Sequence record: NC_049825.1
Source of the DNA: Escherichia phage grams
Reading direction: 5' to 3' (one strand)
Length of the DNA stretch: 49,530 nucleotides
The position numbers and the translations under genes are program-made. How positions within the stretch are numbered: the first letter of the stretch is position 1; every line of letters starts with the position of its first letter. This document shows positions 357 to 49,530 of the stretch, piece by piece. The notes below the pieces were generated by a model. That model worked only from the letters and a program-made list of their open reading frames with translations, made no database searches and was not told where the DNA came from.

Positions 357-402
357 ATTATGCCAGGCTTTTACACCTGGCTTTTAACAAAAAGTGCTAT
401 TT
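357..402 (-). promoter_or_regulatory. conserved 22-bp element plus -10 (CATAAT), leftward
   Basis: AAATAGCACTTTTTGTTAAAAG-N18-CATAAT on minus strand; spacer CCAGGTGTAAAAGCCTGG is a hairpin-forming dyad; stop codon of methyltransferase gene lies inside element. Confidence 0.55.
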
Positions 403-1900: not shown

Positions 1901-2194
1901 CTAATTAATGCCCACCACGTTAAAACTTACAGCTTTTGTTGCGCCAAATACATACGCCTCAACAGCGCCGCCAAATACGCGAATTTTTCCCTGTCCGTAC
2001 TGCGTATTCATATTGCGCCAAACGGTTCTATTAGAACAGAACGCGTTACCAGTCTTAATGAGATTATCCATCTCTTTTCTTAGATCATGATAATCAAGCC
2101 AGAATCTATAAGCGCGTTGTTTAATTCGCGCGCTTCCGGATGGCTGTTTTCGTGTTCCCAGGTAATCAGAGTAACCATTTTCAAATCCTCGCAT
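1901..2194 (-). CDS. hypothetical protein (97 aa)
   Basis: ORF immediately downstream of a motif promoter; short leader without clear SD, start uncertain. Confidence 0.4.
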   Translation of the reverse strand: MRGFENGYSDYLGTRKQPSGSARIKQRAYRFWLDYHDLRKEMDNLIKTGNAFCSNRTVWRNMNTQYGQGKIRVFGGAVEAYVFGATKAVSFNVVGIN

Positions 2195-2211
2195 TCGTTA
2201 TCGATGTGTGT

Positions 2212-2257
2212 AATATATCGGATCGCGAGGATTGAGTTTTAACAAAAAGTGCTATTT
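2212..2257 (-). promoter_or_regulatory. conserved 22-bp element plus -10 (TATATT), leftward
   Basis: AAATAGCACTTTTTGTTAAAAC-N18-TATATT on minus strand; 9-bp inverted repeat AATCCTCGC/GCGAGGATT flanks the -10. Confidence 0.55.
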
Positions 2258-5265: not shown

Positions 5266-5308
5266 ATAGCACGAATTGTTAAAACTCAAATGTGGGGCCA
5301 GGTATAAT
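5264..5308 (+). promoter_or_regulatory. conserved 22-bp element (GAATTG variant) plus -10 (TATAAT)
   Basis: AAATAGCACGAATTGTTAAAAC-N17-TATAAT; -10 flanked by near-dyad GTGGGGCC/GGCCTCAC. Confidence 0.55.
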
Positions 5309-5338
5309 GGCCTCACTTTCAACGAAGGGGATAAAACG

Positions 5339-6543: not shown

Positions 6544-6583
6544 CACTTTTTGTTAAAATAGCTTAACGGGCTTGCTGTATAGT
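6538..6583 (+). promoter_or_regulatory. conserved 22-bp element plus -10 (TATAGT)
   Basis: AAATAGCACTTTTTGTTAAAAT-N18-TATAGT; stop TAG of upstream gene inside element. Confidence 0.55.
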
Positions 6584-6614
6584 AAGCCCATCTACAACAA
6601 ACGAGGATTAAATC

Positions 6615-7845: not shown

Positions 7846-7885
7846 CACGAATTGCTAAAAGCGGGGCGCAATGCCTCGCTATAAT
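7840..7885 (+). promoter_or_regulatory. conserved 22-bp element (GAATTG variant) plus -10 (TATAAT)
   Basis: AAATAGCACGAATTGCTAAAAG-N18-TATAAT; stop TAG inside element. Confidence 0.55.
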
Positions 7886-7915: not shown

Positions 7916-8317
7916 ATGGTAGAGTTAAACGACATTCGCGTTGGAACAAAATTTCGCGTAACCTGGGCAGATAAATATTGCGGAGTTAGCAAGGGCCAGG
8001 TTGTTACTGTGGATAGTATTTATCGCGGATGCAGCAAAGACTTTCGCCGACCACGCATCAAGAATGGCTATATCATTACTCGACAACTTGGCTTTGATCA
8101 TTATTGCGTAGTGGCAACTCAAGGCGTTTTGATTGAGCTTAAGCGAATCAGCGATCATCGCGGCTGCCATGTTAAGACAATGAAAATTCCATTTCTGCGA
8201 GCGCGATACGATGCGCGACGTATGCGCCGACTTGCTCGCAATGCGATCAAGTTCAAAAAGCCTGATAATGTTCTTTACGGCATGTACAAGGGGATTGCGC
8301 GAAATGCTGGGAAATAA
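7916..8317 (+). CDS. hypothetical protein (133 aa), basic C-terminus
   Basis: Internal ATG of track ORF with RBS GAGAGGAAA. Confidence 0.5.
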   Translation: MVELNDIRVGTKFRVTWADKYCGVSKGQVVTVDSIYRGCSKDFRRPRIKNGYIITRQLGFDHYCVVATQGVLIELKRISDHRGCHVKTMKIPFLRARYDARRMRRLARNAIKFKKPDNVLYGMYKGIARNAGK

Positions 8318-8435
8318 CAACAACGCAACCAATCCTAAGCCACCGTTTGATTTTCATGAAATCATGATTGTGTTATTCTTGATTCTCTTAGTTATTTATT
8401 CAGTGAGGGCCGCACTATGGTTTTTAACGCACTAA
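8304..8435 (+). CDS. small membrane protein (43 aa)
   Basis: MLGNNNNATNPKPPFDFHEIMIVLFLILLVIYSVRAALWFLTH; weak RBS; overlaps end of upstream gene. Confidence 0.3.
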   Translation: MLGNNNNATNPKPPFDFHEIMIVLFLILLVIYSVRAALWFLTH

Positions 8436-8680
8436 AACGAATCTTTAAACCTGAATACCGGATCGTTGCTTGCACAGAATGCAAGATTTATTACCTGCAA
8501 CGCCGCCGCGTTATTAGTGGCGATTGGGAATATCTGACGGATGATGCTTTCGGCTTTTGGGCTATGGAGTTCAATAGCTACAGTGAAGCGCGTGAGTACG
8601 CTAAAAAGTTGCACAAGTTCCGACCTTACAAACTGCGTTTGCTGGTTGTCAAAAAGTGCGACGTATGGGATCACGAATGA
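8417..8680 (+). CDS. hypothetical protein (87 aa)
   Basis: ORF with RBS GAGGG. Confidence 0.5.
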   Translation: MVFNALKRIFKPEYRIVACTECKIYYLQRRRVISGDWEYLTDDAFGFWAMEFNSYSEAREYAKKLHKFRPYKLRLLVVKKCDVWDHE

Positions 8681-8856
8681 AAAGAGTAATTATCATTTTT
8701 ATTGCCGTTATCGCTGGTTGTTACCTGGCTTATAATTATAGCGGCATTGTTGAGTCAATCGGCGGGTTGATTATCTTCATGGCTGGCGGGTATGCTGGCT
8801 ATTGTGATGGATTCGAAAACGGAAAGCGATACATGCTGACCGAAAAAAAGAAGTAA
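8677..8856 (+). CDS. small membrane protein (59 aa)
   Basis: MKRVIIIFIAVIAGCYLAYNYSGIVESIGGLIIFMAGGYAG...; ATGA overlap with upstream stop. Confidence 0.45.
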   Translation: MKRVIIIFIAVIAGCYLAYNYSGIVESIGGLIIFMAGGYAGYCDGFENGKRYMLTEKKK

Positions 8857-8899
8857 TGTTAACCGCGCCGCTTCGGTGGCGCTAAAAGGAGGAAACAAA

Positions 8900-9208
8900 A
8901 TGGCTAAAAGCAATCGTAAAATGTTGATTAACGCATTCGAAAAGGCAGCACTTGAGCGTGGTTGGAATGACTCATTTCACACAGCAAACTGTATCCGCCG
9001 TTACGGATTCAAGAATTGCCGCTCATGGGCGCGTGAAATGGCTTCATGGTATGATTTTGATGCTCATTATCTTGATATGGATTGCGCCATGGTTGAAATG
9101 GATTGCGCCATGGTTGAAATGATTGAGCAGGCCGCACTAGAGGATCGACCATTAACGCAATCTGATTTTGACGATTTTGTGCGCGATGAAATCTATTACA
9201 TGAGCTAA
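8900..9208 (+). CDS. hypothetical protein (102 aa) containing an in-frame 21-bp tandem duplication
   Basis: ATG at 8900 with RBS AAAGGAGGAAACAAA; duplicated peptide MDCAMVE. Confidence 0.5.
   Translation: MAKSNRKMLINAFEKAALERGWNDSFHTANCIRRYGFKNCRSWAREMASWYDFDAHYLDMDCAMVEMDCAMVEMIEQAALEDRPLTQSDFDDFVRDEIYYMS
9079..9120 (+). repeat. perfect 2 x 21-bp tandem direct repeat inside CDS
   Basis: GGATTGCGCCATGGTTGAAAT repeated twice. Confidence 0.9.
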
Positions 9209-9251
9209 TAGCACTTTTTGTTAAAACTTCCGCGAGGGCATTTGTTAAAGT
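9206..9251 (+). promoter_or_regulatory. conserved 22-bp element plus -10-like TAAAGT
   Basis: TAATAGCACTTTTTGTTAAAAC-N18-TAAAGT (preceded by TG); stop TAA inside element. Confidence 0.5.
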
Positions 9252-9283
9252 GTCCTCATTGAAGCGAAACAGAGGAAATCAAA

Positions 9284-17665: not shown

Positions 17666-17687
17666 CGTTTAACAAAAAATGCTATCA
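17666..17687 (-). promoter_or_regulatory. conserved element in orientation opposite to flanking late genes
   Basis: Plus strand reads GTTTAACAAAAAATGCTATCA; no well-spaced -10 on minus strand. Confidence 0.35.
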
Positions 17688-21401: not shown

Positions 21402-21447
21402 ATGCTACACGATTCATAATCAATTCTTTTAACAAAAAGTGCTATCA
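21402..21447 (-). promoter_or_regulatory. conserved element plus -10 (TAGCAT) pointing leftward, antisense to late genes
   Basis: Minus-strand reading TGATAGCACTTTTTGTTAAAAG-N18-TAGCAT. Confidence 0.4.
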
Positions 21448-32222: not shown

Positions 32223-32267
32223 ACTATACACGATCTTACAGCAGGCGTTTAGCAAAAAGTGCTATTC
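32223..32267 (-). promoter_or_regulatory. conserved 22-bp element plus -10 (TATAGT), leftward
   Basis: GAATAGCACTTTTTGCTAAACG-N17-TATAGT on minus strand, upstream of lipoprotein gene. Confidence 0.5.
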
Positions 32268-33754: not shown

Positions 33755-33835
33755 ACAGCACAAATAGCTAAACAAATGAAAAATGCGGTGTTATAATTCA
33801 CCGCATAAGTTAACAACAAGCGTGAGGAAATAAAC

Positions 33836-35585: not shown

Positions 35586-36063
35586 TTGCTTTTCCTTCAG
35601 GAGTTGATTGCTGTTCTGGCATTACAGGCCACGGGCTAATTGATTCCCTTTCTGCTACTGGCTTTTCAGGTTCAATTCCTAAAAACTTTCCTACAAACTC
35701 ACCAACAAAATTTGAGCTATCGCTTACATAAACATGCATCCTGTCTAGATCTGCAACAGTAACGCTATTTGGTGCGATCATGATCCTCTGTTGGTGGAAA
35801 CCGATATACATCACATTAGCCGGACGCTCAAGAGTCCCCATATTTGGCGCAATTACGCCCATTATCCAACAATAATGAATGTTGCCATCAAGCGGCTCAC
35901 ATCCAGCGTTAAGCCAGTTTACTTTCTGGTGAGGAAACGCCATTGATGAATCAGTAGCATCACGCCGTAACGACCATTTAACGCCGCCAATCTCAATGAT
36001 TTGTTTCGGCCTCATCCCGTTGAATTGAGTCACGCCAGCGCCATTTTGATTAATGTTTTGCAT
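35572..36063 (-). CDS. hypothetical protein (163 aa)
   Basis: ORF in operon. Confidence 0.5.
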   Translation of the reverse strand: MQNINQNGAGVTQFNGMRPKQIIEIGGVKWSLRRDATDSSMAFPHQKVNWLNAGCEPLDGNIHYCWIMGVIAPNMGTLERPANVMYIGFHQQRIMIAPNSVTVADLDRMHVYVSDSSNFVGEFVGKFLGIEPEKPVAERESISPWPVMPEQQSTPEGKANDEK

Positions 36064-39729: not shown

Positions 39730-39783
39730 ATACACCTCAAACAAAAAGCCTGACAGATGATAACATCATGCCAGGCATTGTTT

Positions 39784-40257
39784 TTAGCAATTAGTGCTTT
39801 CAGGTTTATACAGGAATCCGCCAGGTTCATAATCTGACATTCTTACCACTCGCAACATTTCACGCTTATCACATCTCTTTGTGAGCGGTTTACCATTGGA
39901 ATCAAATCGCAGATCTGGACGGCAGAATGACGCGCGATAGCCTTGGCAGCCATATTTTTTGTAATCGTTATGCACCTTTTGAGCGCCAGCGGCTGAAATC
40001 ATACCGCGAACACGCCACTGATTTACAGTTTGCTGGCTAACGTTAAGACGTTTTGCCATTGCTGACACACTTCCGTAATACTCAATAAGGATATCAAGTC
40101 GCGCTTTTAGCCCGGCACGCACCTCATCTTTTAAAACATAGTATCCTGTAGGGCGCTTGCGCTTTTTCTTATCTTTACCCCGTCGAGTTCCGTTATTGCC
40201 ATTAATTGTGCGCTTGTCAATCTTTCCTGTTGATACTGCGATTCGCTGTTCTTTCAT
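39784..40257 (-). CDS. HTH DNA-binding regulator
   Basis: 157 aa; helix-turn-helix AKRLNVSQQTVNQWRVRG; basic N-terminal region; RBS GGAGAA. Confidence 0.6.
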   Translation of the reverse strand: MKEQRIAVSTGKIDKRTINGNNGTRRGKDKKKRKRPTGYYVLKDEVRAGLKARLDILIEYYGSVSAMAKRLNVSQQTVNQWRVRGMISAAGAQKVHNDYKKYGCQGYRASFCRPDLRFDSNGKPLTKRCDKREMLRVVRMSDYEPGGFLYKPESTNC

Positions 40258-40268
40258 TATTCATTCTC

Positions 40269-40314
40269 CAATAGCATTTTTTGTTAAACGATGATTTAAT
40301 GATTGTGTATTATA
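40269..40314 (+). promoter_or_regulatory. conserved element (variant) plus -10 (TATTAT) for helicase operon
   Basis: CAATAGCATTTTTTGTTAAACG-N17-TATTAT. Confidence 0.5.
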
Positions 40315-40336
40315 CACGCCAAATGGCATTACTCAA
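40309..40336 (-). promoter_or_regulatory. sigma70 promoter for regulator/primase operon
   Basis: Minus strand TTGAGT-N16-TATAAT with TG extension; -10 lies in near-palindrome GTGTATTATACAC. Confidence 0.5.
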
Positions 40337-40346
40337 AGGTTTTAGA

Positions 40347-42392
40347 ATGATTCCAAACATTGAAAAGCAAATATCAGCACTTGGTGAAGCGGTAATTAAA
40401 TCCATTCAGGAGCGATTCACTGTTGGCGAGATTGTGCCTTACCCTTACCAGTGCGTTGCATACGCTGAGATCGCAAAGCGCATGAAAAATTATGAGCATC
40501 CATTCTTTGTTAAAGCGTCCGTATCGGCTGGAAAAACATTGATGTTTGCAATGGTTGCTCACCAGTGCCGGAAAATGGGCTTGAAAATGATGGTCCTTGC
40601 TCGCCAGGCTGAGATTGTGGATCAGGATTCTGAAGAGATAACAAATCTTGGCGTGCCGAACTCCATCTATTGTGCAGGACTGAAGACAAAAAGCGCATAC
40701 TTTCCGATCGTTGTTGGTTCTGAGGGAACTGTAGTTAATGGACTGTTTAAAGCGCTTGGCGACTATGTTCCGCACGTTATCGGGATTGACGAGTGTCACC
40801 AGGTGGATTGGGAAGACCTTGCCGACGCCATAGAGAAAGACGAGTCATTTTTACAAATGACGACGAAGAAAGGCGAAAAAGTACCAAATCCAGATTATGA
40901 CATAACAAAGGGAAGCAGGAACAGAAATACAGAGTTCCTGATTGGTGAGGATGGCTTGCCAATGGAGGGAACAGGCCGCACGCAATACACTGTCATTATC
41001 ATGGAAATGATGCGACGTTGCAGGAAAGCATACGGTCATGAACTGCGCATCTTTGGTATGACTGGATCGGAGTTTCGCGGCGTAGTTCCAATACTGGTAG
41101 AAGATAAAAAGCAGAAAGGATTTTGGCGTGAACAGGTTACTAATATTGACACCAACTACCTAATCAAGTTCGGTTCTGTTGTTCCGACTAATTTTGGCGA
41201 CGTTGGCGATCTCGGGTATGACCTTTCAGAGTTTGAGGCATCCAGTGAGGATGGCGTTGCAGACTTTGACGCTAAAACGCTTCGTAGGATGGAACAAAAA
41301 ATTCATGAAGAAGCGACCATGACAAAGCGCATCATGGCGAAAGTGCACGAGATCTGTAAAAACCGTAACGGTGTACTTGTGACATGTGCAGGCGAAAGGC
41401 ACTGTAAAGAGGCAGCGGCAGCATTGCCGCCTGGAACGACTTACAGGATCATTACTGGTAAGACTGGCGATAACCAGCGCAAGGAGTGGTTGAAAGAAGC
41501 ATACGAGGGAAAGGTTAAATACATCTTCCAGGTGCAGGCGCTAACTACTGGCGTTAACGTGCCGTTTTGGGATACGTCTGTTATTCTGCGTAAGATTGGA
41601 TCTCTTACGTTGCTGATTCAGCTTTTAGGTCGCGGAATGCGACTACTTAAGAAGTGGCATAAGGAGCAAGGATTCCAGAAGGATGATCATCTAGTCATGG
41701 ATTTTTCAGGAACGATGGACGAGCTAGGGGAGCTTTATTTTGATCCGATACTGGAACAGGCGCAGCACCAGAAGCGATTTAGGAACGGTAAAGATCCGAA
41801 GCCTTGTCCTGTTTGCGGAACTCTTAACAGCTATTATGCTCGTCGTTGTATGAACGTAGATGAAAACGGCAACAGATGCGAGTGGTTCTTTAAATTCAGG
41901 ACATGTGATGATCAGATTGACCCGCGCACTAAAAAGATTATTCATCGCGGTTGCGGAACGAAGAATGATATTGCGGCCAGGGTATGCAGACATTGCGACA
42001 TGTCATTGATTGACCCTAACGAGAAGTTAAGCGGAAAGCACTACACAAAAAACGACTGGTTCCAAGTGCAATCTTTCGCGGTTGACATGACGAAAAACCA
42101 GAAAGGGATAATATTTAATTATGAGCTTTCCGATGGCATAGATACTTTCAAGGCGAGAGAGATATTTTTCCCTGAATCTGAAAGCCAAATTTGTCGCGCA
42201 AAATGGCGAAGCGTTGCTCTTAAGCACATACCAGATCGCCGTGTCGCTGGCATGGTCGCGAGCTATCGTAATGCACGTAAAATCATGCAATATGTGAATC
42301 ACATTATGCCACCATCGCGTGTGACTCACCGCAAGACGAGCAAGGGCGAAGATAATTTGTACAAGAAGGAATTTAATTATGGCAATGACTGA
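40347..42392 (+). CDS. superfamily 2 DNA helicase with C-terminal zinc ribbon
   Basis: Walker A SVSAGKTL, DECH box IGIDECHQV, motif VI QLLGRGMR; CxxC pairs near C-terminus; start at 40347 chosen for SD. Confidence 0.75.
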   Translation: MIPNIEKQISALGEAVIKSIQERFTVGEIVPYPYQCVAYAEIAKRMKNYEHPFFVKASVSAGKTLMFAMVAHQCRKMGLKMMVLARQAEIVDQDSEEITNLGVPNSIYCAGLKTKSAYFPIVVGSEGTVVNGLFKALGDYVPHVIGIDECHQVDWEDLADAIEKDESFLQMTTKKGEKVPNPDYDITKGSRNRNTEFLIGEDGLPMEGTGRTQYTVIIMEMMRRCRKAYGHELRIFGMTGSEFRGVVPILVEDKKQKGFWREQVTNIDTNYLIKFGSVVPTNFGDVGDLGYDLSEFEASSEDGVADFDAKTLRRMEQKIHEEATMTKRIMAKVHEICKNRNGVLVTCAGERHCKEAAAALPPGTTYRIITGKTGDNQRKEWLKEAYEGKVKYIFQVQALTTGVNVPFWDTSVILRKIGSLTLLIQLLGRGMRLLKKWHKEQGFQKDDHLVMDFSGTMDELGELYFDPILEQAQHQKRFRNGKDPKPCPVCGTLNSYYARRCMNVDENGNRCEWFFKFRTCDDQIDPRTKKIIHRGCGTKNDIAARVCRHCDMSLIDPNEKLSGKHYTKNDWFQVQSFAVDMTKNQKGIIFNYELSDGIDTFKAREIFFPESESQICRAKWRSVALKHIPDRRVAGMVASYRNARKIMQYVNHIMPPSRVTHRKTSKGEDNLYKKEFNYGND

Positions 42393-42798
42393 TAAAGGCG
42401 ATTATCTGGAGTTTTACGAAAGAGATCCGACAGATACGCTAAAAGAGGAATCTCACCAGATCGGGGCGTTTCAATGGTTAACTTATGCTCATCCTGAATT
42501 ACTGGCATGGCATACGAAAAACGAGGGCGACAAGGGGATCGCCACCGCAATGATGGATCAGCAAGCTGGGCTTGTTAAGGGCGTAAGTGATTTTATCATC
42601 CTGATTGGATTAAAAGGTCGTTACCCGTTCGCGGCAATTGAGATGAAGCGCGTCAATAAGTCCGGCAAGGGTAAGGCTTCACCAGTCAGCAAGGACCAAA
42701 AAGCCTTCTTGCGTCGTGTGCGTGAGCTTGGCGGATTCGCTGCCGTAACATACGGATATAAGCAATTCATGATCGCGGTAGAATACATGATGAAATAG
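42379..42798 (+). CDS. VRR-NUC domain nuclease
   Basis: 139 aa; SDFIILIG...AIEMK block fits PD-(D/E)XK of VRR-NUC; overlaps helicase stop. Confidence 0.55.
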   Translation: MAMTDKGDYLEFYERDPTDTLKEESHQIGAFQWLTYAHPELLAWHTKNEGDKGIATAMMDQQAGLVKGVSDFIILIGLKGRYPFAAIEMKRVNKSGKGKASPVSKDQKAFLRRVRELGGFAAVTYGYKQFMIAVEYMMK

Positions 42799-42838
42799 CA
42801 CTTTTTGTTAAAACAGGCGCGAAGGATTGCGCCATAAT
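42793..42838 (+). promoter_or_regulatory. conserved 22-bp element plus -10 (CATAAT)
   Basis: AAATAGCACTTTTTGTTAAAAC-N18-CATAAT; spacer contains GGCGC...GCGCC dyad; stop TAG inside element. Confidence 0.55.
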
Positions 42839-42872
42839 AACGCCAGTTCAACAAGCAACAGGTAATTAAGAA

Positions 42873-43574
42873 ATGAGTAAAGAAACTGAAGTGACATTTG
42901 AACAAATAGAACGCGAAACATTCATTGGCAATGCTCTTGCTACTGGTGGTCATTACCAGGCTGTTAAACCAAATCAATATTTCAAAGTGACTGGCAACCG
43001 CTATAACGGCAGCAATACGCCGGACATTGTGCGCGATTTGTGGTCTACTCCGTATGAGCTTGTCGCATGGATGGAAAGTGAATACGGTGATTATGACATC
43101 GACGCGGCTGCAAGCAAAGAAAATGCTGTATGTGAAAAATTCTACAGCAAGGAAACAAATTGCTTAAAGCGTTGGTGGGGTAGTAACAAGCATATATGGC
43201 TTAATCCACCGTACAGCAATATTACGCCATTTGTTAAGAAGGCGATTGAGCAAATGGAGCACAACAACCAGATCGACATGCTGTTACCTTGCGACACATC
43301 AACAGGATGGTTTTATGAAGCGCAACAGCGCGCAGCGGAAATCATCTGGATCACTGGCGAAGTTTACCAGGAAGACGGAACAGAATATTCCCGCACAGGA
43401 CGCCTTGCGTTTACCTCTGCTCTTACAGGTAAACCAGTGCAGGGCAACAACAAAGGCAGCGTTATTTTCATCATGCGCGAACTAAAAGAAGGTGAGCAGC
43501 AGAAAACGCGATACGTTAAAATCAGCGACATTTGCCCTTCGGTGGCAGACCGTCGCGCACGGAAACGGAGCTAA
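42873..43574 (+). CDS. DNA N6-adenine methyltransferase (Dam-like)
   Basis: 233 aa; NPPY catalytic motif (WLNPPYSN); RBS AAGAAATG context. Confidence 0.7.
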   Translation: MSKETEVTFEQIERETFIGNALATGGHYQAVKPNQYFKVTGNRYNGSNTPDIVRDLWSTPYELVAWMESEYGDYDIDAAASKENAVCEKFYSKETNCLKRWWGSNKHIWLNPPYSNITPFVKKAIEQMEHNNQIDMLLPCDTSTGWFYEAQQRAAEIIWITGEVYQEDGTEYSRTGRLAFTSALTGKPVQGNNKGSVIFIMRELKEGEQQKTRYVKISDICPSVADRRARKRS

Positions 43575-43578
43575 AACC

Positions 43579-43836
43579 ATGCAGAAAGAAAGAAGAGTTT
43601 TACTTAATGAAGATGGCGAATTTCTTTTGTATCGCGCTATGGTATGCGATGCACTTGATAAAAACCCTAACGTGAAAAAGATGATTGATTGCGATCCGTG
43701 GGAATTTTCAAGCGCATTAGATATGAGCTTTGAGGAGACAAAAAAACTCCCGCTTGAAAAATGGCACGAACAAATCAGAAATGACATGCAAGAATTTGTC
43801 GATTCTTGGAATTTTAAGAACGGAATGATCCACTAA
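43579..43836 (+). CDS. hypothetical protein (85 aa)
   Basis: Internal ATG of track ORF with RBS GGAGC. Confidence 0.45.
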   Translation: MQKERRVLLNEDGEFLLYRAMVCDALDKNPNVKKMIDCDPWEFSSALDMSFEETKKLPLEKWHEQIRNDMQEFVDSWNFKNGMIH

Positions 43837-43879
43837 TAGCACTTTTTGTTAAAACGCCCGGCCTTGTGTCGGGCATAAT
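43834..43879 (+). promoter_or_regulatory. conserved 22-bp element plus -10 (CATAAT)
   Basis: TAATAGCACTTTTTGTTAAAAC-N18-CATAAT; spacer GCCCG...CGGGC dyad; stop TAA inside element. Confidence 0.55.
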
Positions 43880-43911
43880 TATTTCATCAAAACGAACAAG
43901 AGGAAAACAAA

Positions 43912-44091
43912 ATGGTTGTTTACGATCCACGCGCTTTTAAAATTGCTCAAGAAGTTTCACGCGAATCTGTTGCTGGCGGTTCGGTTAACGGCTATCAGTT
44001 TGATTGGTCGGCAGCAATGACCTTGCTTAAGGTTGCATATGGTCACGCGCCAATTGAAACAGCGGAGGAATATTATAAGCATGAAGGTTGA
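43912..44091 (+). CDS. hypothetical small protein (59 aa)
   Basis: Strong RBS AAGAGGAAAACAAA; below track cut-off. Confidence 0.4.
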   Translation: MVVYDPRAFKIAQEVSRESVAGGSVNGYQFDWSAAMTLLKVAYGHAPIETAEEYYKHEG

Positions 44092-44323
44092 ACAAGGTAG
44101 GCAGGCTGTATGGGATCACGCAAAGGAATGCGGGATCGCAGAAGACATATCCAGGATAGCGAAATATTTTGATATTGCTGACATAAGCATTATCAGCGGC
44201 GACAAAATGACATTTCTCAATGAACGCCCGCGCAAGATGCATCGTGTCCCAGCAATACCAACAAAGATTGATTTCAAAGAGGCTATGGCGAAAATTCGCG
44301 AGCCGCGCAAATACTACAAATGA
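44081..44323 (+). CDS. hypothetical protein (80 aa); start uncertain (44039 or 44081)
   Basis: In frame with track ORF 44033..44323. Confidence 0.4.
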   Translation: MKVEQGRQAVWDHAKECGIAEDISRIAKYFDIADISIISGDKMTFLNERPRKMHRVPAIPTKIDFKEAMAKIREPRKYYK

Positions 44324-44421
44324 GGATTATTATCATGTGGCGTTTGTTACTTTTGCCCTTACCTGTTATGATGTCGATCTCTATTGTATATGTTGTCATA
44401 ATGAGATAAGGAGAATTTTTG

Positions 44422-45537
44422 ATGAAGCAAATCAAAATCACAGATGAACAATTTATCAATGAGCGCAAGCAGGGAAAGACATATAAGCAGATCGCTAATG
44501 AGTATGGCATGAACGTTCGCAGCATTGAGCGCCGCGCAGCACGACTTGCAAAGAAGGGAGAGATTGACACAAAAGGTGCGCCAGGATTTGGGATTGCTCG
44601 TGAATCTGTTTTACGACGCGCCAACGGTGAAGAAGTAATGAGATGGACAATCACCACTCGCGACAAAGAACAGTTAGAAGCATTAATGCAGGCCGCTATT
44701 GATGCATTTAGCGAAGAAGTCCCTCGACTTGATCCGCAGCAAGAATCACAAAAGGATTATAGCGAGACGTTATCACTGTATCCGATCTTTGATATGCACC
44801 TGGGCGCAATGGCGCATAAGCATGAATGCGGCGAGAATTGGGATACAGCAACAGCAGAGCGCGTAATGAATAATTTCATTGACTATTCCATCCAGTGCGC
44901 GCCGGATAGTGAAAAAGCTGTTTTGCTGATTGGTGGTGATATGCTTCACAGCGACGGACTGGAAGCGGTAACACCTGCAAGCGGTCACGTATTGGATCAA
45001 GATAGTCGATACGCAAAACTGGTTTACGTTGCCATCCGGTCAGTGCGTCGAGCAATCACAAAGCTGTTATCAAAACACAAAAACGTAGAGATTCAGATCA
45101 TTGAAGGCAACCACGACCAAAGCGGCATGATCTGGTTGCGCGCAGCAATGGCGGCAGCATATGAGAATGAGCCGCGAGTGCATGTTGATGTGTCTCCGCG
45201 AGTAGTTCATCACACACAATATGGCAAAACGTTCCTGGCATACCATCACGGGCATACTATCCGCAAACCTGAAACATTGCTCATGATGTGCGCGGCAGAC
45301 TGGCGCGAAGATTTCGGCAATTCAAAAATGATGTATGCTCACGTAGGGCACTGGCATCATCAGACAGTAACTGAAACAAGCCTTGGCATTGTTGAAGTGC
45401 ATAGCACTATGGCGGCAAAAGATGCATATGCTGCGCGCGGTGGATGGCGTTCTCGTCGCCGTGCGGCTGTTATTGTTTATGATAAAGAATACGGAGAAGT
45501 AGGGCGATTTATGCATTATCCAGAAATGGCTGGTTGA
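44422..45537 (+). CDS. metallophosphoesterase with N-terminal HTH-like domain
   Basis: Calcineurin-like motifs DMHLG, GGDMLH, GNHD, GHWHH; N-terminal YKQIANEYGMNVRSIERRAARL; RBS AAGGAG. Confidence 0.6.
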   Translation: MKQIKITDEQFINERKQGKTYKQIANEYGMNVRSIERRAARLAKKGEIDTKGAPGFGIARESVLRRANGEEVMRWTITTRDKEQLEALMQAAIDAFSEEVPRLDPQQESQKDYSETLSLYPIFDMHLGAMAHKHECGENWDTATAERVMNNFIDYSIQCAPDSEKAVLLIGGDMLHSDGLEAVTPASGHVLDQDSRYAKLVYVAIRSVRRAITKLLSKHKNVEIQIIEGNHDQSGMIWLRAAMAAAYENEPRVHVDVSPRVVHHTQYGKTFLAYHHGHTIRKPETLLMMCAADWREDFGNSKMMYAHVGHWHHQTVTETSLGIVEVHSTMAAKDAYAARGGWRSRRRAAVIVYDKEYGEVGRFMHYPEMAG

Positions 45538-45579
45538 ACTTTTAATCATTAAAATATAAATATAAATCATCAATTTAAT

Positions 45580-45612
45580 TGGGCGTGGCATTTTGCTTCG
45601 CCCTTTTTTTAT
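45580..45612 (+). terminator. intrinsic terminator
   Basis: GGGCG...CGCCC stem plus T-run. Confidence 0.6.
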
Positions 45613-45683
45613 TCCTTTTTGTGCGTTCAATGGTTAGGATACAATCAATTAATTGTTGACTTTTATCTACAGGAGATCTAATT

Positions 45684-45899
45684 ATGAAAGATTTTTTAAA
45701 CGCTGCAACTTCCGGCACTGGCGGCGCGTCAATCACTGGCGCGGTAACTGGTCAAACAACTATTGCAATAGCCAGCTTCGTTTTGATGGCTGCATTTGGT
45801 ATGTGGGGCGCTTATCTTCGTTGGCGTGATAGTAAGGCGCTACGTGACGCGCTTGAATGCGGTGATATTAAGAAGGCTATTGAAATCAGGGGTAAATAA
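45684..45899 (+). CDS. holin (pinholin-like)
   Basis: 71 aa; Gly/Ala/Thr-rich hydrophobic segments; directly upstream of endolysin; RBS CAGGAG. Confidence 0.6.
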
Positions 45900-46387
45900 T
45901 GAGCATAAAACAAAGAGTGACCGCTGCGGCTTTTGGCGTTGCTCTTGCTCTTACTTCTCCATTACTGGAGGAAATAGAAGGAGTAAAATATAAGCCGTAC
46001 AAAGATATTGCTGGAATATGGACGGTTTGCGCCGGAATAACTGGACCTGACGTAATACTAGGTAAGACGTACACACAGAGAGAGTGCGATGCGCTACTGG
46101 CAAAGCATATCAAGATCGCAAAGGATGAAGTTGATAAGCGCGTGAAGGTTGATATTCCTGATACAATGCGCGCGGCAATGTATTCATTCACGTATAATGC
46201 TGGCACTGGTGCTTTTAGAAATTCAACCATGCTTAAGCTGATTAATAAAGGCCGTTACATGGAAGCGTGCGATCAGTTATGGCGATGGACCAAATACACC
46301 AATCCAAAAACAGGAAAGAAAGAAACGTCTAAAGGACTGCGCAACCGCCGCGCCGTGGAATTTAAATATTGCATTAAGGAACTGTAA
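45899..46387 (+). CDS. SAR endolysin (lysozyme)
   Basis: 162 aa; weakly hydrophobic N-terminal segment [17 protein letters not shown]; E-x8-D-x5-T catalytic spacing; sequence recalled as closely resembling phage 21 R. Confidence 0.8.
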
Positions 46388-46389
46388 TT

Positions 46390-46776
46390 ATGAGAAAGTT
46401 ATCAGTAATCGCGATCGCTGTTATCTTGTCTGGATGTTCAAGCGTTATGCCACTGACCGGATTGATAGGAAGCAAGCCTGAAATAACAGCACAGGCTGGC
46501 GCGGAGAACGTTAAGCAGACAGTTGGCGTTACCGCAAAGCAGGACGCCAGCACAAAACAGGAAACCACAATAAAGGAATCTGCGGTTGATAAGGTGGACA
46601 CGTCCAGCAAGAAGGATTTCACAACATCAACCATTCAGGCCAATACCATCAAGGCTGATAAAATCCAGGTCGTGCAGGGTAATAACGGCAGATGGTACGA
46701 CCCCGTAATCATATGCGTGGTTGTGTTCCTTGTGCTGATTTGTCTTTACTGGAGGGAAAAGAAAAAGGAGGCTTAA
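46390..46776 (+). CDS. unimolecular spanin
   Basis: 128 aa; N-terminal lipobox ILSGC and C-terminal TM helix VIICVVVFLVLICLYW, the arrangement described for T1 gp11. Confidence 0.7.
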   Translation: MRKLSVIAIAVILSGCSSVMPLTGLIGSKPEITAQAGAENVKQTVGVTAKQDASTKQETTIKESAVDKVDTSSKKDFTTSTIQANTIKADKIQVVQGNNGRWYDPVIICVVVFLVLICLYWREKKKEA

Positions 46777-46800
46777 CGCCTCCTTTATTTTTATGCGTCG
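46770..46800. terminator. bidirectional intrinsic terminator
   Basis: GGAGGCTTAACGCCTCC flanked by A-run and T-run. Confidence 0.7.
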
Positions 46801-47006
46801 GGCCACATATGGCTTTCGTTTGTGAGTTTTTCATATTCGCGAACTTCAAATTCGCACTTATCACCGTACATCTCCGCGACTTTCTTCTCGTTCTCTACCG
46901 CTGATTCCTCGGTCCATCCATCAGCTTTGCTGTAAAGAGTTGGAATCTCACTGCTAGTACCGTTGGAGTGATTATAAACGCGAACTACTAAAAATTTGTT
47001 AGCCAT
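46791..47006 (-). CDS. hypothetical protein (71 aa)
   Basis: ORF downstream of motif promoter 47044..47089. Confidence 0.5.
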   Translation of the reverse strand: MANKFLVVRVYNHSNGTSSEIPTLYSKADGWTEESAVENEKKVAEMYGDKCEFEVREYEKLTNESHMWPDA

Positions 47007-47043
47007 GATGTTTTCCTTCTGGTCGTTTCGTTTCGATGAAACA

Positions 47044-47089
47044 AATATACCCGATACGAGATCGGGTGTTTTAACAAAAAGTGCTATTC
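47044..47089 (-). promoter_or_regulatory. conserved 22-bp element plus -10 (TATATT), leftward
   Basis: GAATAGCACTTTTTGTTAAAAC-N18-TATATT; spacer CCCGAT...ATCGGG dyad. Confidence 0.55.
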
Positions 47090-47204
47090 AATACGCTTTA
47101 CAGTAACCAACAAAACGCCGTCATCATCACACAAATTATGCTCTGATATATCAAACGCTCGCATGTCAGAATGAATGAGCGTTAACATTGCGTGCATGAA
47201 GTCG

Positions 47205-47597
47205 TCATGTGAGATTGAACTTACGGCGCAGAACTTCAATATTTTGTCTATTAGCATTTGACGTAAACAATTCTTCATCGCTCATTTCTCCGATCCGTAA
47301 AACATCCCTTACCCATTCGTTTTGCATACCTTCCAGGCTGTAAAGTTCAAACGAGAAAGGGCGATTTGCTGATCCTTTCTTACACCAGAACTTTCCACCA
47401 ACTCCATCAAGATAACCAGCGGTCATCATTCTTGCGCAAAATTCTTTTGAAACGGCAGTTGCAAACGTCCTCGGAGTAAATCCTGCGGCCCTTGCGAGCC
47501 GCTCACATTCTCTGTGCTGAAAGATAAATTTTGCTATATGTTGACGTGTAAACCACTCGAATGACTCACACCAGCGATACAGATCCAGAAGAAACAT
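47205..47597 (-). CDS. hypothetical protein (130 aa)
   Basis: ORF; start overlaps stop of upstream gene. Confidence 0.5.
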   Translation of the reverse strand: MFLLDLYRWCESFEWFTRQHIAKFIFQHRECERLARAAGFTPRTFATAVSKEFCARMMTAGYLDGVGGKFWCKKGSANRPFSFELYSLEGMQNEWVRDVLRIGEMSDEELFTSNANRQNIEVLRRKFNLT

Positions 47598-47599
47598 AA

Positions 47600-49183
47600 T
47601 TACCCTAGCAATGTTGGATTTACGAAAACAACACCATTAATTACACAAATATAATTTCTTTCCTCAAGCATCGGAAGCAGTTGCGTTTCCATGCGCTTCA
47701 TTACTCCAGCCTGGCCAACAAAAGGCTTAACTTTTCGTGCAGCCTCGTATATTGCGCGCACATTCAAGATCCCCTTGTTAGCCTTACCGTGTCGAGTGAT
47801 GATCTCGATTAGTTTACCCATTTCAGCATCATCACCAGCATAGCCAGAAGCGTTGGCGGCGCTAATGTATGTTTTGCTCAACTCGCTAAACATCAGCAGT
47901 GCTTCCTGAACGGTTTCAACCTCAATCTCTTTCGACTTCTGAGGGTATCCACCAGGATTAAACCAATTGCGGATAGTGTGCAAAACCGAAGCAATCCTTA
48001 TCACCTGCTTATCCATTTTGCCAAGCGCGCCGCGCAGCATTGTATGCGAATACTTTCCTCCATCGGCAAGGTGCGGCTCCATCTCCTGACGAGCCATGTT
48101 AAGCACTCGCATTGCTGATTTGCTGATCTTAAGCTGGATGTTTGATTCGCTCATTATGTTATGGATCAGCTTAAAATATTGGCTTTTCAGTTCTCCATCA
48201 ACAGGTTCATAAGTCGAATCACCGTTATCATCAACAAATTTTCGACGACCTAAAAATGATTCTTCACGCACAAGCAAATAACGTTCACTCACACCGATAC
48301 CGCGCGATCCTGCATCCATGATGGCATTAATTGTTTCATCCTGAGCAATTACTGCCATACAGCCAAGAGCTTTAAAACTCATGTTATTGTCTGCGTTTGC
48401 GCGAGCTATAGAAACATGACCGTGATCCCATGCTTTTAGCACAAGTTCGCTGTTTGTTTTGCGTTCGCTATTGGCATATGTCAGACCTAAAAGGCTGTTA
48501 ATACTCGTTGCCTCGTCTGAAATTACAGCAAAGTTACCCTGGCGATTGTTGATTCTTGCAAGTCCTTCAGGCGTGGTGTCTGAAACAGGGAAAACAATGT
48601 CACACATCTTTTCCAGCTTTTCTTCAAGATCTTCTTTCTCCTGGTATAGCGATTCCATATCAGCACCAGATCGCTCGCTCTTCATCTCTTTTGCAAGACC
48701 TGCCAACTTTGCCTGAATCTTTTTCCGCTCCTTCTTTCGCTGATCATTAATCCTTTCCACTTCAGCAACCATAGGAGCAAGAGCCAGGCTGTTAACGGCA
48801 GATTTACCAGTTGAAGGAGGCTGGCTTGTGACAACATAAAGAGCGGTTGGCTGATCCGTTCCGTGATACTCAACCGTGAATCGCCCAAGCATTGCAGCAG
48901 ACACACAGCCGATAAAATGCATATATGCCGATGATTCAGGGAATTGAACAGATCGAGCAATGTTTCGCGCCAACTTTCCAACAACATCAACATCATTGCC
49001 AAGAGAAATTACAGGGTAGCGATCGTTTCCGTTATTAACATCATTAACCTCACCCCAAAAGCTGGACGATTGACGGTATCCGTTAGCCTGAATGGACACG
49101 CGCACCGGAGACAATCCTTGTGCATCAGCTAATTCGATAATTTGTTTTGGTGTTAGTTTATTGGTTTCAAACGAAAAATTCAT
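47600..49183 (-). CDS. P-loop ATPase, replication-associated candidate
   Basis: ATG at 49183 with RBS AAAAGGAG; Walker A-like SQPPSTGKS and Walker B-like VISDE. Confidence 0.55.
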   Translation of the reverse strand: MNFSFETNKLTPKQIIELADAQGLSPVRVSIQANGYRQSSSFWGEVNDVNNGNDRYPVISLGNDVDVVGKLARNIARSVQFPESSAYMHFIGCVSAAMLGRFTVEYHGTDQPTALYVVTSQPPSTGKSAVNSLALAPMVAEVERINDQRKKERKKIQAKLAGLAKEMKSERSGADMESLYQEKEDLEEKLEKMCDIVFPVSDTTPEGLARINNRQGNFAVISDEATSINSLLGLTYANSERKTNSELVLKAWDHGHVSIARANADNNMSFKALGCMAVIAQDETINAIMDAGSRGIGVSERYLLVREESFLGRRKFVDDNGDSTYEPVDGELKSQYFKLIHNIMSESNIQLKISKSAMRVLNMARQEMEPHLADGGKYSHTMLRGALGKMDKQVIRIASVLHTIRNWFNPGGYPQKSKEIEVETVQEALLMFSELSKTYISAANASGYAGDDAEMGKLIEIITRHGKANKGILNVRAIYEAARKVKPFVGQAGVMKRMETQLLPMLEERNYICVINGVVFVNPTLLG

Positions 49184-49210
49184 TGATGATAACTCCTTTT
49201 TGATGCGGCA

Positions 49211-49256
49211 ATAATACCGCACCAATGCTACCCGCATTTAACAAAAAATGCTATTT
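49211..49256 (-). promoter_or_regulatory. conserved element (variant) plus -10 (TATTAT), leftward
   Basis: AAATAGCATTTTTTGTTAAATG-N18-TATTAT; ATGCGG/CCGCAT dyad flanks spacer and -10. Confidence 0.5.
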
Positions 49257-49472
49257 TATCCGCTCTATGCTAACTAAGATTTTTTCTGGTTCCTTTGCAC
49301 TATGGCAATGCGCGGTTACAGAATCAACAAAATCAAAGTAAAGTGATTTGTGATATGAGAATCCAATCAGCCATCCAACCATTGTTTTCTTTATTGGCCT
49401 GACTATATCGCCAGGCTTAAAGGTTTTTGTTGCTGAATAAGTCACCTTATAGCGATATTCAGTCTTGATCAC
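49251..49472 (-). CDS. hypothetical protein (73 aa), GTG start
   Basis: GTG start overlapping stop of upstream fragment (GTGA); stop TAG inside conserved element. Confidence 0.4.
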   Translation of the reverse strand: MIKTEYRYKVTYSATKTFKPGDIVRPIKKTMVGWLIGFSYHKSLYFDFVDSVTAHCHSAKEPEKILVSIERIK

Positions 49473-49530
49473 TTATACATAGCCTCAAACAAATGGCAGC
49501 CACCAGCGGAAAATCCTACTTCTTCGCGGT
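49470..49530 (-). CDS. C-terminal fragment of gene entering from right edge (likely same gene as 1..325)
   Basis: Open frame ...REEVGFSAGGCHLFEAMYK stop; frame continuous with 1..325 if ends are joined. Confidence 0.4.

What the first reader, a model, noticed from the sequence alone, without database searches (positions are those of the whole stretch)
43856..43879. GC-rich dyad symmetry between the conserved element and the -10 hexamer
In at least seven copies the 18-bp spacer contains or is flanked by a short GC-rich inverted repeat: 43856..43874 GCCCG/CGGGC; 42816..42832 GGCGC/GCGCC; 363..380 CCAGG/CCTGG; 47050..47067 CCCGAT/ATCGGG; 2212..2235 region AATCCTCGC/GCGAGGATT; 5292..5316 GTGGGGCC/GGCCTCAC; 49211..49240 ATGCGG/CCGCAT. 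The stem sequences differ between copies while the position is conserved, so it is more likely a structural feature (terminator or processing hairpin for read-through transcripts, or DNA structure affecting open-complex formation) than a common operator.
Basis: seen in the sequence. Interest (0 to 1): 0.55.

Follow-up and report, generated by a model that had tools for sequence, protein, structure and literature searches.

The report
RNA hairpins built into phage promoters
In this T1-like coliphage most copies of a repeated early promoter carry a GC-rich stem-loop hidden in the promoter's free positions, most likely an RNA hairpin that marks the end of the upstream transcript; the repeated promoter element itself matches the binding site of the host stress activators MarA/SoxS/Rob.

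Summary
All seven dyads exist, and 11 of 18 copies of the repeated promoter in the window carry a stable hairpin (z -2.4 to -6.2). Across 379 unique copies from T1-like phages, 76% fold to -10 kcal/mol or better, against 19% of shuffles.

The hairpins take two positions. Class 1 fills the 18-nt spacer and ends at -12. Class 2 has its 5' arm in the spacer, the -10 hexamer in or near the loop, and the discriminator as its 3' arm, ending at -1. Both stop before the predicted start site.

Stems covary. They carry G·U pairs on the sense strand only (sense RNA more stable in 87 of 130 copies, antisense in 22). They are commoner where a same-strand gene ends at the element (80% vs 33%). Only 18% have a U-rich tail.

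Best reading: RNA hairpins that act on read-through transcripts as attenuators or 3'-end protectors. This is the design described as PeSL cassettes in T4-like phages.

The conserved element is the known T1/TLS 21-nt direct repeat. I find that it matches the marbox consensus exactly, in class II position. This link was not found in the literature searched.

The parts
43836..43855 (+). Conserved 20-nt element ATAGCACTTTTTGTTAAAAC of the focal copy. It overlaps the stop codon of the upstream ORF (43492..43836) and lies at about -50..-31. It is the known T1/TLS direct repeat, and its core 43839-43853 matches the marbox consensus GCAHWWWWTGYYAAA 15/15.
43856..43874 (+). Focal hairpin, class 1: GCCCGGC-cttgt-GTCGGGC. 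It has 7 pairs including one G·U and a 5-nt loop, dG -13.0, z -3.6. It fills the 18-nt spacer, and its last base is the first base of the -10 hexamer. The tail is AUAAUUAUUU.
43874..43879 (+). -10 hexamer CATAAT, 18 nt after the conserved element.
43880..43895 (+). Discriminator TATTTC, then the predicted start site A at 43886, then the conserved leader ATCAAAACGA. The SD is at 43898-43903 and the ATG at 43912. The start site is inferred, not mapped.
42816..42833 (+). Class 1 hairpin of copy 42798+ (GGCGCGA-agga-TTGCGCC), dG -11.4, z -2.5. Element 42795-42814, -10 CATAAT 42833-42838.
362..381 (-). Class 1 hairpin of copy 397- (GCCAGGT/GCCTGGC), dG -13.7, z -4.6. Element 381-400.
7860..7880 (+). 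Class 1 hairpin of copy 7845+ (GCGGGGCG/GCCTCGCT, with G·U), dG -14.5, z -4.5.
47049..47067 (-). Class 1 hairpin of copy 47084- (ACCCGAT-ctcgt-ATCGGGT), dG -9.3, z -2.4. The tail AUAUUUGUUU is terminator-like.
5292..5316 (+). Class 2 hairpin of copy 5269+ (GTGGGGCCA-ggtataa-TGGCCTCAC). The -10 hexamer TATAAT is mostly in the loop, with its last T in the stem. dG -16.4, z -4.7.
6568..6589 (+). Class 2 hairpin of copy 6543+ (GGGCTTGCT-gtat-AGTAAGCCC). The core arms are GGGCTT and AAGCCC, the latter being the discriminator. The predicted helix runs on into the -10 TATAGT, whose first three bases lie in the loop. The 3' arm ends at -1. dG -14.8, z -4.2.
9234..9257 (+). Class 2 hairpin of copy 9211+ (GAGGGCATTT/AAGTGTCCTC, with G·U). 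It ends at -1. dG -14.2, z -3.6.
33783..33806 (+). Class 2 hairpin of a further, one-mismatch copy at 33758+ (ATGCGGTG-ttataatt-CACCGCAT). dG -13.2, z -5.5.
39748..39776 (-). Class 2 hairpin of a further copy at 39797- (GCCTGGCA...TGTCAGGC followed by TTT). dG -18.1, z -6.2. It corresponds to the true terminator that follows the repeat in T1 (35930-35971) and TLS (T57).
49200..49225 (-). Class 2 hairpin of copy 49251- (GGTGCGGTA-ttat-TGCCGCATC). The whole region has dG -18.7 and z -4.7.
2184..2233 (-). Copy 2252-: a long-range 9-bp helix, AATCCTCGC in the spacer with GCGAGGATT covering the downstream Shine-Dalgarno. There is no local hairpin.

Best explanation
The dyads encode RNA hairpins written into the positions of a repeated early promoter that are free to vary.

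The promoter reads as follows: stop codon of the upstream gene, a 20-nt conserved element at -50..-31, an 18-nt spacer, a -10 hexamer, a 6-nt discriminator, A(+1), and the leader TCGAAACGA. RNA polymerase does not read the spacer or the discriminator base by base, so the phage uses them for a stem-loop. Either both arms lie in the spacer (class 1, typically 7+4+7 = 18 nt), or one arm lies in the spacer and the other in the discriminator (class 2).

The hairpin ends at -12 or -1, so it is absent from the promoter's own mRNA. It is present in any transcript that reads through from the upstream gene. There it marks the 3' boundary of the upstream unit. It attenuates read-through, strongly only where a U-rich -10 and discriminator follow, as in the focal copy. 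It may also protect the upstream mRNA's 3' end after processing.

Shown here: the hairpins exist, are enriched, covary, are biased to the sense strand, and stop before the predicted +1.

Inferred: the start site, the presence of read-through, and the split between termination and stabilisation.

The cassettes also look like exchange points between phage genomes, as PeSLs are.
For: - Enrichment.
- Two sharp end positions at -12/-11 and -1.
- Covariation: one search gives 90.5% paired against 65.9% shuffled and 19-40% slid, with 6 of 7 pairs changed on both sides. Ortholog clusters show GCCCGG/GTCGGGC vs GCCAGG/GTCTGGC at the focal promoter, and GGGGTA/TACCCC, GGGGTG/CACCCC, GGGGCA/TGCCCC.
- Strand asymmetry: sense RNA is more stable than antisense in 87 vs 22 of 130 non-redundant copies (Wilcoxon 3e-11). 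Composition does not explain this and it vanishes without G·U pairs. It holds with strand-symmetric selection (57 vs 8) and for the spacer alone (24 vs 10, P = 0.004). GAAA, GCAA and UUCG loops recur.
- Context: a hairpin is present in 80% of copies that follow a same-strand ORF, against 33% of those that do not (P = 7e-6). The three copies that point against the late genes lack hairpins.
- Precedent: PeSL stem-loops sit between -35 and -10 or over the -10, are polyG/polyC rich, and one of them cut lacZ read-through like a strong terminator.
- T1's GenBank record annotates three of these spacer hairpins as rho-independent terminators. The consensus scan ranks the focal hairpin as the top terminator-like site in 40000-49530.
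- Exchange points: 12 of 47 homology-block ends lie within 50 nt of a cassette, against 5.8% expected. Two blocks begin and end in consecutive cassettes.
Against: - No transcript 5' or 3' ends are available for any T1-like phage in the library searched. The start site and read-through are therefore assumed.
- Only 15 of 82 hairpins have a U-rich tail, and T content after class 1 stems is barely above that of hairpin-less copies (4.85 vs 4.45). Canonical termination cannot be the general function.
- The same genome uses clear T-run terminators in the late region.
- About a third of copies work without a local hairpin.
- The covariation set was hand-picked for shared register.
- The sequences are phylogenetically related.
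- Part of the G·U bias in class 2 could come from the fixed T's of the -10 hexamer.
- A C-to-T bias on the non-template strand could add to it.
Confidence: 0.6

Rival explanations
1. They are ordinary, efficient Rho-independent terminators that end each upstream transcription unit, with the -10 hexamer and discriminator serving as the U-tract.
For: - The T1 record annotates three orthologous hairpins as terminators.
- TLS T62 and T57 directly follow direct repeats DR12 and DR10.
- The focal hairpin and 47049-47067 pass a simple terminator scan.
- Promoter-coupled terminators are reported as widespread in bacteria.
Against: - Only 18% of hairpins have at least 5 T in the 8 nt after the stem.
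- Class 2 stems are followed by AUCGAAACGA.
- There is no T enrichment relative to hairpin-less copies.
- True terminators in the same genome have long T runs.
Confidence: 0.15
2. The dyads act at the DNA level. A GC-rich spacer and discriminator, or an extruded cruciform, would tune open-complex formation or activator dependence of the promoter.
For: - The hairpins lie wholly inside the promoter.
- Class 2 makes the discriminator GC-rich (C 54%), a feature known to destabilise open complexes (general knowledge of rRNA-type promoters).
- MarA can activate by distorting base pairing next to its site.
Against: - The sense-strand G·U bias and RNA-type tetraloops are not expected for duplex or cruciform DNA.
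- Loops of 4-12 nt and 6-9 bp arms extrude poorly.
- Hairpins depend on an upstream same-strand gene.
- GC richness alone would not require complementarity or covariation.
Confidence: 0.12
3. The stem-loops matter mainly for genome plasticity. They would be recombination or nuclease hot spots that move gene cassettes between phages, with no role in transcripts.
For: - Homology-block ends are enriched at cassettes, and two blocks are bounded by consecutive cassettes.
- The same cassette occurs in the unrelated T4-like phage KP15.
- PeSL crossovers map in or next to the stem-loop.
Against: - Recombination needs only the conserved flanks, not a variable stem.
- It does not explain covariation, strand bias, or the end positions at -12 and -1.
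- The breakpoint enrichment is modest, and the early region is variable in any case.
Confidence: 0.08
4. The dyads are operators for a dimeric DNA-binding protein, or are chance matches in GC-rich spacers.
For: Dyad symmetry in an over-long spacer recalls MerR-type promoters (my own knowledge). The phage encodes a Cro/YdaS-like HTH protein.
Against: - Stem sequences differ in nearly every copy, so there is no common operator.
- Chance is excluded by the shuffles.
Confidence: 0.03

Closest known systems
PeSL (promoter-early stem-loop) cassettes of T4-like phages RB49/phi1, also T4- and KVP40-like (Arbiol et al. 2010, PMC2839356; Comeau et al. 2014, PMC4122927)
   Same: - A repeated intergenic cassette running from the stop codon to the next ATG.
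- A host-RNAP early promoter with a stable stem-loop placed between the upstream box and -10 or over the -10, the two commonest PeSL positions.
- G-run then C-run stems.
- Dense among small ORFans.
- Cassette boundaries coincide with gene gain and loss.
   Different: - The family is different (Drexlerviridae).
- The upstream box is not a consensus -35 plus AT-rich region. It is a 20-nt element identical to a class II marbox.
- Most stems lack a U-tract.
- Terminator activity and mini-circles were not tested here.
Promoter-coupled terminators in bacteria (Fletcher et al., bioRxiv 2026, 10.64898/2026.08.19.745784)
   Same: Termination signals of the upstream unit and the promoter of the downstream unit share the same DNA between tandem genes. 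The hairpin overlaps promoter elements.
   Different: In that work the stem-loop overlaps the -35, a T-tract lies just upstream of the -10, and 3' ends map about 10 bp before the TSS. Here the stem lies in the spacer or discriminator, downstream of the upstream box, and usually has no T-tract.
The 21-nt direct repeat aaATAGCACnnnTTGnTAAAA of phages TLS, T1, Rtp and Rogue1 (PMC11447400)
   Same: It is the same conserved element, with the same orientation and the same distance of about 76 nt to the start codons.
   Different: That paper leaves the function open (stoperator, enhancer or UP element). It mentions neither the fixed -10 hexamer 18 nt downstream nor any stem-loop.
Class II marbox promoters of the MarA/SoxS/Rob/RamA regulon, e.g. 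micF
   Same: - The element matches GCAHWWWWTGYYAAA (15 exact copies in the window).
- It is in forward orientation, centred at about -40/-41, with no -35 and a canonical -10.
- micF reads GCACTGAATGTCAAAAC-18 nt-TAGAAT, the same frame and spacing.
   Different: - The micF spacer has no hairpin.
- Binding and activation by host proteins were not tested.
- 11-16 consensus copies per 49-kb genome is far denser than in the host.
Intercistronic stem-loops that protect upstream mRNA from 3' exonucleases (REP elements, malE-malF type; my own knowledge)
   Same: GC-rich hairpins without a U-tract, between co-transcribed genes.
   Different: REPs are a conserved sequence family that lies outside promoters. 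Here the stems are unrelated in sequence and lie inside a promoter.

Membership tests
PeSL-type composite promoter/stem-loop cassette | Repeated intergenic motif holding a host-RNAP promoter plus a stable stem-loop located between the upstream box and -10, or overlapping -10 | tested here: met
   There are two position classes, with 3' arms ending at -12/-11 and at -1. The PeSL positions are described.
PeSL-type composite promoter/stem-loop cassette | The stem-loop attenuates or terminates transcription coming from upstream | not testable with these tools
   Support is indirect only: sense-strand G·U bias, tandem-context dependence and 18% with a U-rich tail.
PeSL-type composite promoter/stem-loop cassette | Cassettes flank variable small genes and coincide with recombination junctions | tested here: inconclusive
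   12 of 47 block ends lie within 50 nt of a cassette, against 5.8% expected. Two blocks are bounded by consecutive cassettes. Only three relatives were compared, and the ends are not independent.
Intrinsic (Rho-independent) terminator | GC-rich hairpin immediately followed by a U-tract | tested here: not met
   The feature is met by the focal hairpin and by 47049-47067. It is met by only 15 of 82 hairpins family-wide, so it is not met as a general property.
Promoter-coupled terminator (Fletcher et al. 2026) | Stem-loop over the -35, a T-tract just upstream of the -10, and a 3' end about 10 bp before the TSS | tested here: not met
   The stem lies downstream of the upstream box, and there is no T-tract before the -10. 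3' ends are not available.
Class II marbox promoter (MarA/SoxS/Rob/RamA) | Match to the marbox consensus 5'-GCAHWWWWTGYYAAA-3' | tested here: met
   The window has 15 exact and 3 one-mismatch sites, against 2.7 expected at up to one mismatch. 303 of 432 unique family copies are exact, and there are 11-16 per genome.
Class II marbox promoter (MarA/SoxS/Rob/RamA) | Forward orientation, overlapping the -35 position, centred near -41, no recognisable -35, canonical -10 | tested here: met
   The element lies at -50..-31 relative to the predicted +1. The spacing to the -10 is 18 nt in 379 of 432 copies. This frame is identical to micF as read from the E. coli genome. The TSS is predicted, not mapped.
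Class II marbox promoter (MarA/SoxS/Rob/RamA) | Bound and activated by MarA, SoxS, Rob or RamA | not testable with these tools
   No phage-encoded MarA homologue was found (tblastn E = 2.9), so a host protein would be required.
MerR-type promoter (operator dyad in an over-long spacer) | The same dyad operator at every regulated promoter | tested here: not met
   Arm sequences differ between copies.
Sigma-54 (-24/-12) promoter | TGGCAC-N5-TTGCW with invariant GG and GC | tested here: not met
   The element is TAGCAC-N3-TTG(T/C)T. The spacing is wrong, it has AG instead of GG, and often GT instead of GC. The consensus is from my own knowledge.
RNase III processing site (T7 type) | About 20 bp of double-stranded RNA | tested here: not met
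   Stems have mostly 7-10 pairs. The length requirement is from my own knowledge.
Any Rfam family | Match at the gathering threshold | tested here: not met
   No matches in the whole window.

The most novel reading that the evidence does not exclude
The cassette is a dual-use unit not described before. On DNA it would be a consensus class II marbox promoter, so that 15-18 early promoters per T1-like genome are fired by the host's stress activators (Rob, MarA, SoxS; RamA in Klebsiella and Salmonella). On RNA, its spacer and discriminator would form a hairpin that shuts off or caps read-through from the upstream gene. Each small early gene would then be expressed mainly from its own activator-dependent start. 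The unit would also move between unrelated phage families, since it occurs in the T4-like phage KP15. Hundreds of replicated marboxes could in addition titrate these activators away from host efflux and porin promoters.
Probability: 0.35. Interest if true: 0.8.

Novelty: new variant of a known kind. Interest (0 to 1): 0.58.

Why it matters
It explains a long-noted but unexplained repeat of T1-like phages as a complete promoter cassette, and it shows that the cassette carries a second, RNA-level signal in the positions the polymerase does not read.

It extends the PeSL design from T4-like phages to an unrelated family. That suggests a general solution for dense phage genomes: ending one unit and starting the next within about 75 bp.

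The marbox match gives a directly testable link between phage early transcription and the host regulators that drive multidrug resistance. This could affect phage-antibiotic combinations and phage growth on mar/ram-derepressed clinical strains.

Tried and rejected
**Readings of the conserved element that were rejected**
- Sigma-28, sigma-54 and UP-element readings fail on spacing or key bases (sequence inspection).
- TTGTTA as a -35 would need a 22-bp spacer.
- The inverted repeat TAGCA-N5-TG(C/T)TA inside the element, and its predicted 5-bp RNA helix, were noted but not pursued. The asymmetric marbox reading fits all 15 positions.

**Readings of the hairpin that were rejected**
- An N4-type DNA-hairpin promoter and a phage RNA polymerase. 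No such gene is present: the ORF list is, and the TLS paper reports none.
- An antisense-strand terminator (hairpin followed by GUUUUAAC). One site is flagged, but the strand bias favours the sense strand.

**Analyses that were weak or led nowhere**
- A third class, with an anti-Shine-Dalgarno sequence in the spacer, has only weak support: 3 of 24 against 1.9% in shuffles.
- Fixed-register column covariation over all copies is diluted because registers vary. The top diagonal sums to -25, with z up to 3.7.
- The anchor test on GGGG/CCCC gave few cases.
- A single-mismatch census gave G:T 13 against A:C 4, P = 0.05, which is suggestive only.
- A targeted IMG/VR scan for focal orthologs returned only 3 loci.
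- Alignment A1 mixed two registers and was discarded.

**Literature gaps**
- The T1 (Virology 2004) and Rtp (J Bacteriol 2006) genome papers are not held. I cannot exclude that they comment on these hairpins.
- No TSS or 3'-end data set for a T1-like phage was found.
- No paper linking marboxes to phages was found.

Full report
**What the window is.** The 49.5-kb window is essentially a whole T1-like siphophage genome of the Drexlerviridae. It is 96% identical to Escherichia phage damhaus, genus Hanrivervirus.

A pattern search finds 15 copies. A weight matrix finds a 16th at 7845, and a consensus search adds 33758(+) and 39797(-). Every copy points toward a downstream gene with a ribosome-binding site.

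The layout is fixed:
- the stop codon of the upstream gene overlaps the element;
- 18 nt later lies a -10 hexamer (CATAAT, TATAAT, TATAGT or TATTAT; 379 of 432 unique family copies have exactly this spacing);
- 6 nt after the hexamer lies an A followed by a conserved leader, TCGAAACGA, and about 20 nt further on lies the start codon.

**The observation.** One is imperfect (5292-5316, one G:T). One is long-range (2184-2233).

Perfect dyads of at least 5 bp within the 20-nt spacer window occur in 4 of 16 copies, against 0.54 expected (P about 0.0005). Folding the spacer, -10 and discriminator gives stable structures in 11 of 18 copies, with dG -9 to -19 kcal/mol and z -2.4 to -6.2. The folding tool agrees for the focal and six other regions.

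To test generality I pulled 120 IMG/VR loci holding the exact 20-mer and added T1. Among 379 unique copies in the standard register, mean MFE is -13.0 against -7.4 for dinucleotide shuffles. 76% against 19% reach -10 or better.

**Anatomy.** The hairpins fall into two classes.
- Class 1 fills the 18-nt spacer, typically with 7 bp, a 4-5-nt loop and 7 bp. It ends at the first base of the -10 hexamer. Examples are the focal 43856-43874, 42816-42833, 362-381, 7860-7880 and 47049-47067.
- Class 2 has its 5' arm in the spacer at about -24..-19. The -10 hexamer sits in the loop or is partly paired. The discriminator (-6..-1) is the 3' arm, ending exactly at -1. Examples are 5292-5316, 6568-6589, 9234-9257, 33783-33806, 39748-39776 and 49200-49225.

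The distribution of 3' arm ends peaks at -12 (61 copies) and at -1 (70 copies). The hairpin therefore always stops before the predicted start site. It occupies exactly the promoter positions that are not read base-specifically.

**DNA or RNA, and which strand.** Taking all 130 non-redundant copies without preselection, the sense-strand RNA folds better than the antisense RNA in 87 cases and worse in 22 (mean difference -1.9 kcal/mol, Wilcoxon 3e-11).
- Shuffles of the same sequences give +0.4, and the difference disappears when G·U pairs are forbidden.
- The bias survives a strand-symmetric choice of hairpins (57 vs 8; both classes).
- It survives restriction to the spacer alone (24 vs 10, P = 0.004).
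- Class 1 loops are often GAAA, GCAA, GAGA or UUCG.

A cruciform or a protein operator would not show this asymmetry. It points to an RNA made in the direction of the genes.

**Covariation.** Orthologous promoters keep the helix while changing it. The focal promoter has GCCCGG...GTCGGGC in some phages and GCCAGG...GTCTGGC in others. Another group shows GGGGTA/TACCCC, GGGGTG/CACCCC and GGGGCA/TGCCCC, with wobble intermediates.

In 21 class 1 hairpins sharing one register, 90.5% of cells pair, against 65.9% in shuffles and 19-40% with slid partners. 6 of 7 pairs change on both sides. This set was hand-picked, so the figures are an upper bound. Some orthologous positions carry entirely different hairpins (cluster 0), which suggests replacement by recombination.

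**Context.** The hairpin lies upstream of +1, so it can only be in RNA that comes from upstream. In agreement, 80% of copies preceded by a same-strand ORF of at least 150 nt have a hairpin of -8 kcal/mol or better. Only 33% of copies without such an ORF do (P = 7e-6). The three copies that point against the late genes (17682-, 21442-, 32262-) lack hairpins. The copy at the divergent junction (40274+) has only a weak helix (-3.5 kcal/mol, z 0.1).

**Terminator or not.** The focal hairpin has a U-rich tail (AUAAUUAUUU). It is the top terminator-like site in the scan of 40000-49530, and 47049-47067 also qualifies. The T1 GenBank record annotates three orthologous spacer hairpins as rho-independent terminators. 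In TLS two predicted terminators directly follow direct repeats.

Family-wide, however, only 15 of 82 hairpins pass the same tail criterion: 10 of 36 in class 1 and 5 of 46 in class 2. T content after class 1 stems is close to that of hairpin-less copies. Class 2 stems are followed by AUCGAAACGA. The late region of the same genome uses textbook T-run terminators.

I conclude that the common function is not efficient intrinsic termination. Attenuation, 3'-end protection or insulation of read-through RNA fits better, with real termination at a minority of copies that includes the focal one.

[quoted passage not shown] Their stems often run polyG then polyC. They lie between small ORFans, act as attenuators or terminators in a lacZ assay, and mediate modular shuffling.

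The T1-like cassettes have the same two positions and the same G-run/C-run polarity. Comparison with three relatives shows homology blocks ending at cassettes more often than expected: 12 of 47 within 50 nt, against 5.8%. Two blocks (4274-5261 and 7840-9278) start and stop in consecutive cassettes. A recent preprint on promoter-coupled terminators in bacteria describes a related but geometrically different overlap.

**What the conserved element is.** The 21-nt repeat is already published for TLS, with a note that T1, Rtp and Rogue1 have it. Its function was left open, and neither the -10 nor any stem-loop is mentioned.

I find that it matches the published marbox consensus 5'-GCAHWWWWTGYYAAA-3' at all 15 positions in 15 copies in the window, and at 14 of 15 in three more. 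2.7 sites are expected at up to one mismatch. T1, damhaus, morffagbaw and haarsle have 11-16 exact copies each, and 303 of 432 unique family copies are exact.

The element is in forward orientation and centred at about -40/-41. There is no -35, and the -10 is canonical. These are the published rules for class II MarA/SoxS/Rob/RamA promoters.

The E. coli micF promoter, read directly from a genome, is GCACTGAATGTCAAAAC-18 nt-TAGAAT-7 nt-G(+1). This is the same 17-mer frame and the same 18-nt spacing. The phage encodes no MarA homologue. I found no paper linking marboxes to phages. Binding and activation remain untested.

**Spread beyond the family.** One IMG/VR hit is Klebsiella phage KP15, a T4-like Slopekvirus. 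It carries a complete class 2 cassette, with element, 18 nt, TATAGT, GGGGTA/TACCCC stem and ATCGAAAC leader. The cassette is annotated 'putative middle promoter; discovered using MEME'. About 350 nt upstream is a degenerate copy with a true terminator in the same place.

**Verdict.** The finding is real and family-wide. It is best explained as an RNA hairpin embedded in a promoter, that is, a PeSL-like cassette. Its exact role, whether attenuation or 3'-end protection, needs transcript mapping. The surrounding promoter is probably a class II marbox promoter. That is the more surprising result, and it is easy to test.

Noticed in passing
window 43839-43853 and 17 other sites (one search list): The conserved promoter element is an exact match to the MarA/SoxS/Rob marbox consensus GCAHWWWWTGYYAAA. 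It lies in class II position and orientation, with the same frame and 18-nt spacing as E. coli micF. T1-like genomes carry 11-16 exact copies each. The link was not found in the literature searched.
   Followed up: yes
window 43886-43895 and the equivalent position of most copies: A conserved leader, A(+1)TCGAAACGA (variants ATCAAAACGA, ATCGACAACG, AACGAAACGA), starts at the predicted TSS. Its function is unknown. It could be an initial transcribed sequence, an RNase site or a translation enhancer.
   Followed up: no
window 17666-17685(-), 21426-21445(-), 32246-32265(-): Three copies of the element point against the late structural genes. Equivalent copies exist in T1 (15083-, 18847-). They lack hairpins and may drive antisense RNAs or small minus-strand genes.
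   Followed up: partly
window 2184-2233(-): In copy 2252- the spacer pairs over 9 bp with the Shine-Dalgarno of the downstream gene. Read-through RNA would therefore mask the ribosome-binding site, while the promoter's own mRNA would not. Anti-SD in the spacer is only weakly enriched family-wide.
   Followed up: partly
L015 10011-10085(-) and 10386-10440(-) (Klebsiella phage KP15, NC_014036): A T4-like Slopekvirus carries the same cassette (element, 18 nt, TATAGT, GGGGTA/TACCCC stem, ATCGAAAC leader), annotated as a putative middle promoter. A neighbouring degenerate copy holds a true terminator. This suggests transfer of cassettes between phage families.
   Followed up: partly
window 4274-5261 and 7840-9278: Blocks of homology to relatives (morffagbaw, haarsle) begin and end inside consecutive promoter cassettes, as expected for cassette-mediated gene shuffling.
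   Followed up: partly
window 39784-40257(-) and 40309-40336(-): A 157-aa protein with a weak Cro/YdaS-type HTH match, annotated 'transcriptional regulator' in relatives, has one of the few canonical sigma-70 promoters (TTGAGT-16-TATAAT). That promoter is divergent from marbox copy 40274+.
   Followed up: no
window 11251, 13442, 17176, 18719, 21364, 22086, 25156 (+); 46764-46786 (both strands): The late region uses textbook hairpin-plus-T-run terminators, several of them bidirectional. They contrast with the promoter-embedded hairpins.
   Followed up: no
window 43837-43851 (inside the element): The element contains an imperfect inverted repeat, TAGCA-N5-TG(T/C)TA, predicted to form a weak 5-bp RNA helix upstream of the main hairpin.
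   Followed up: no
public records MG065679, MG065643, MG065670 and others: Twenty GenBank records named 'Campylobacter phage' are about 85% identical to this coliphage region. They are probably mislabelled or contaminant T1-like phages.
   Followed up: no
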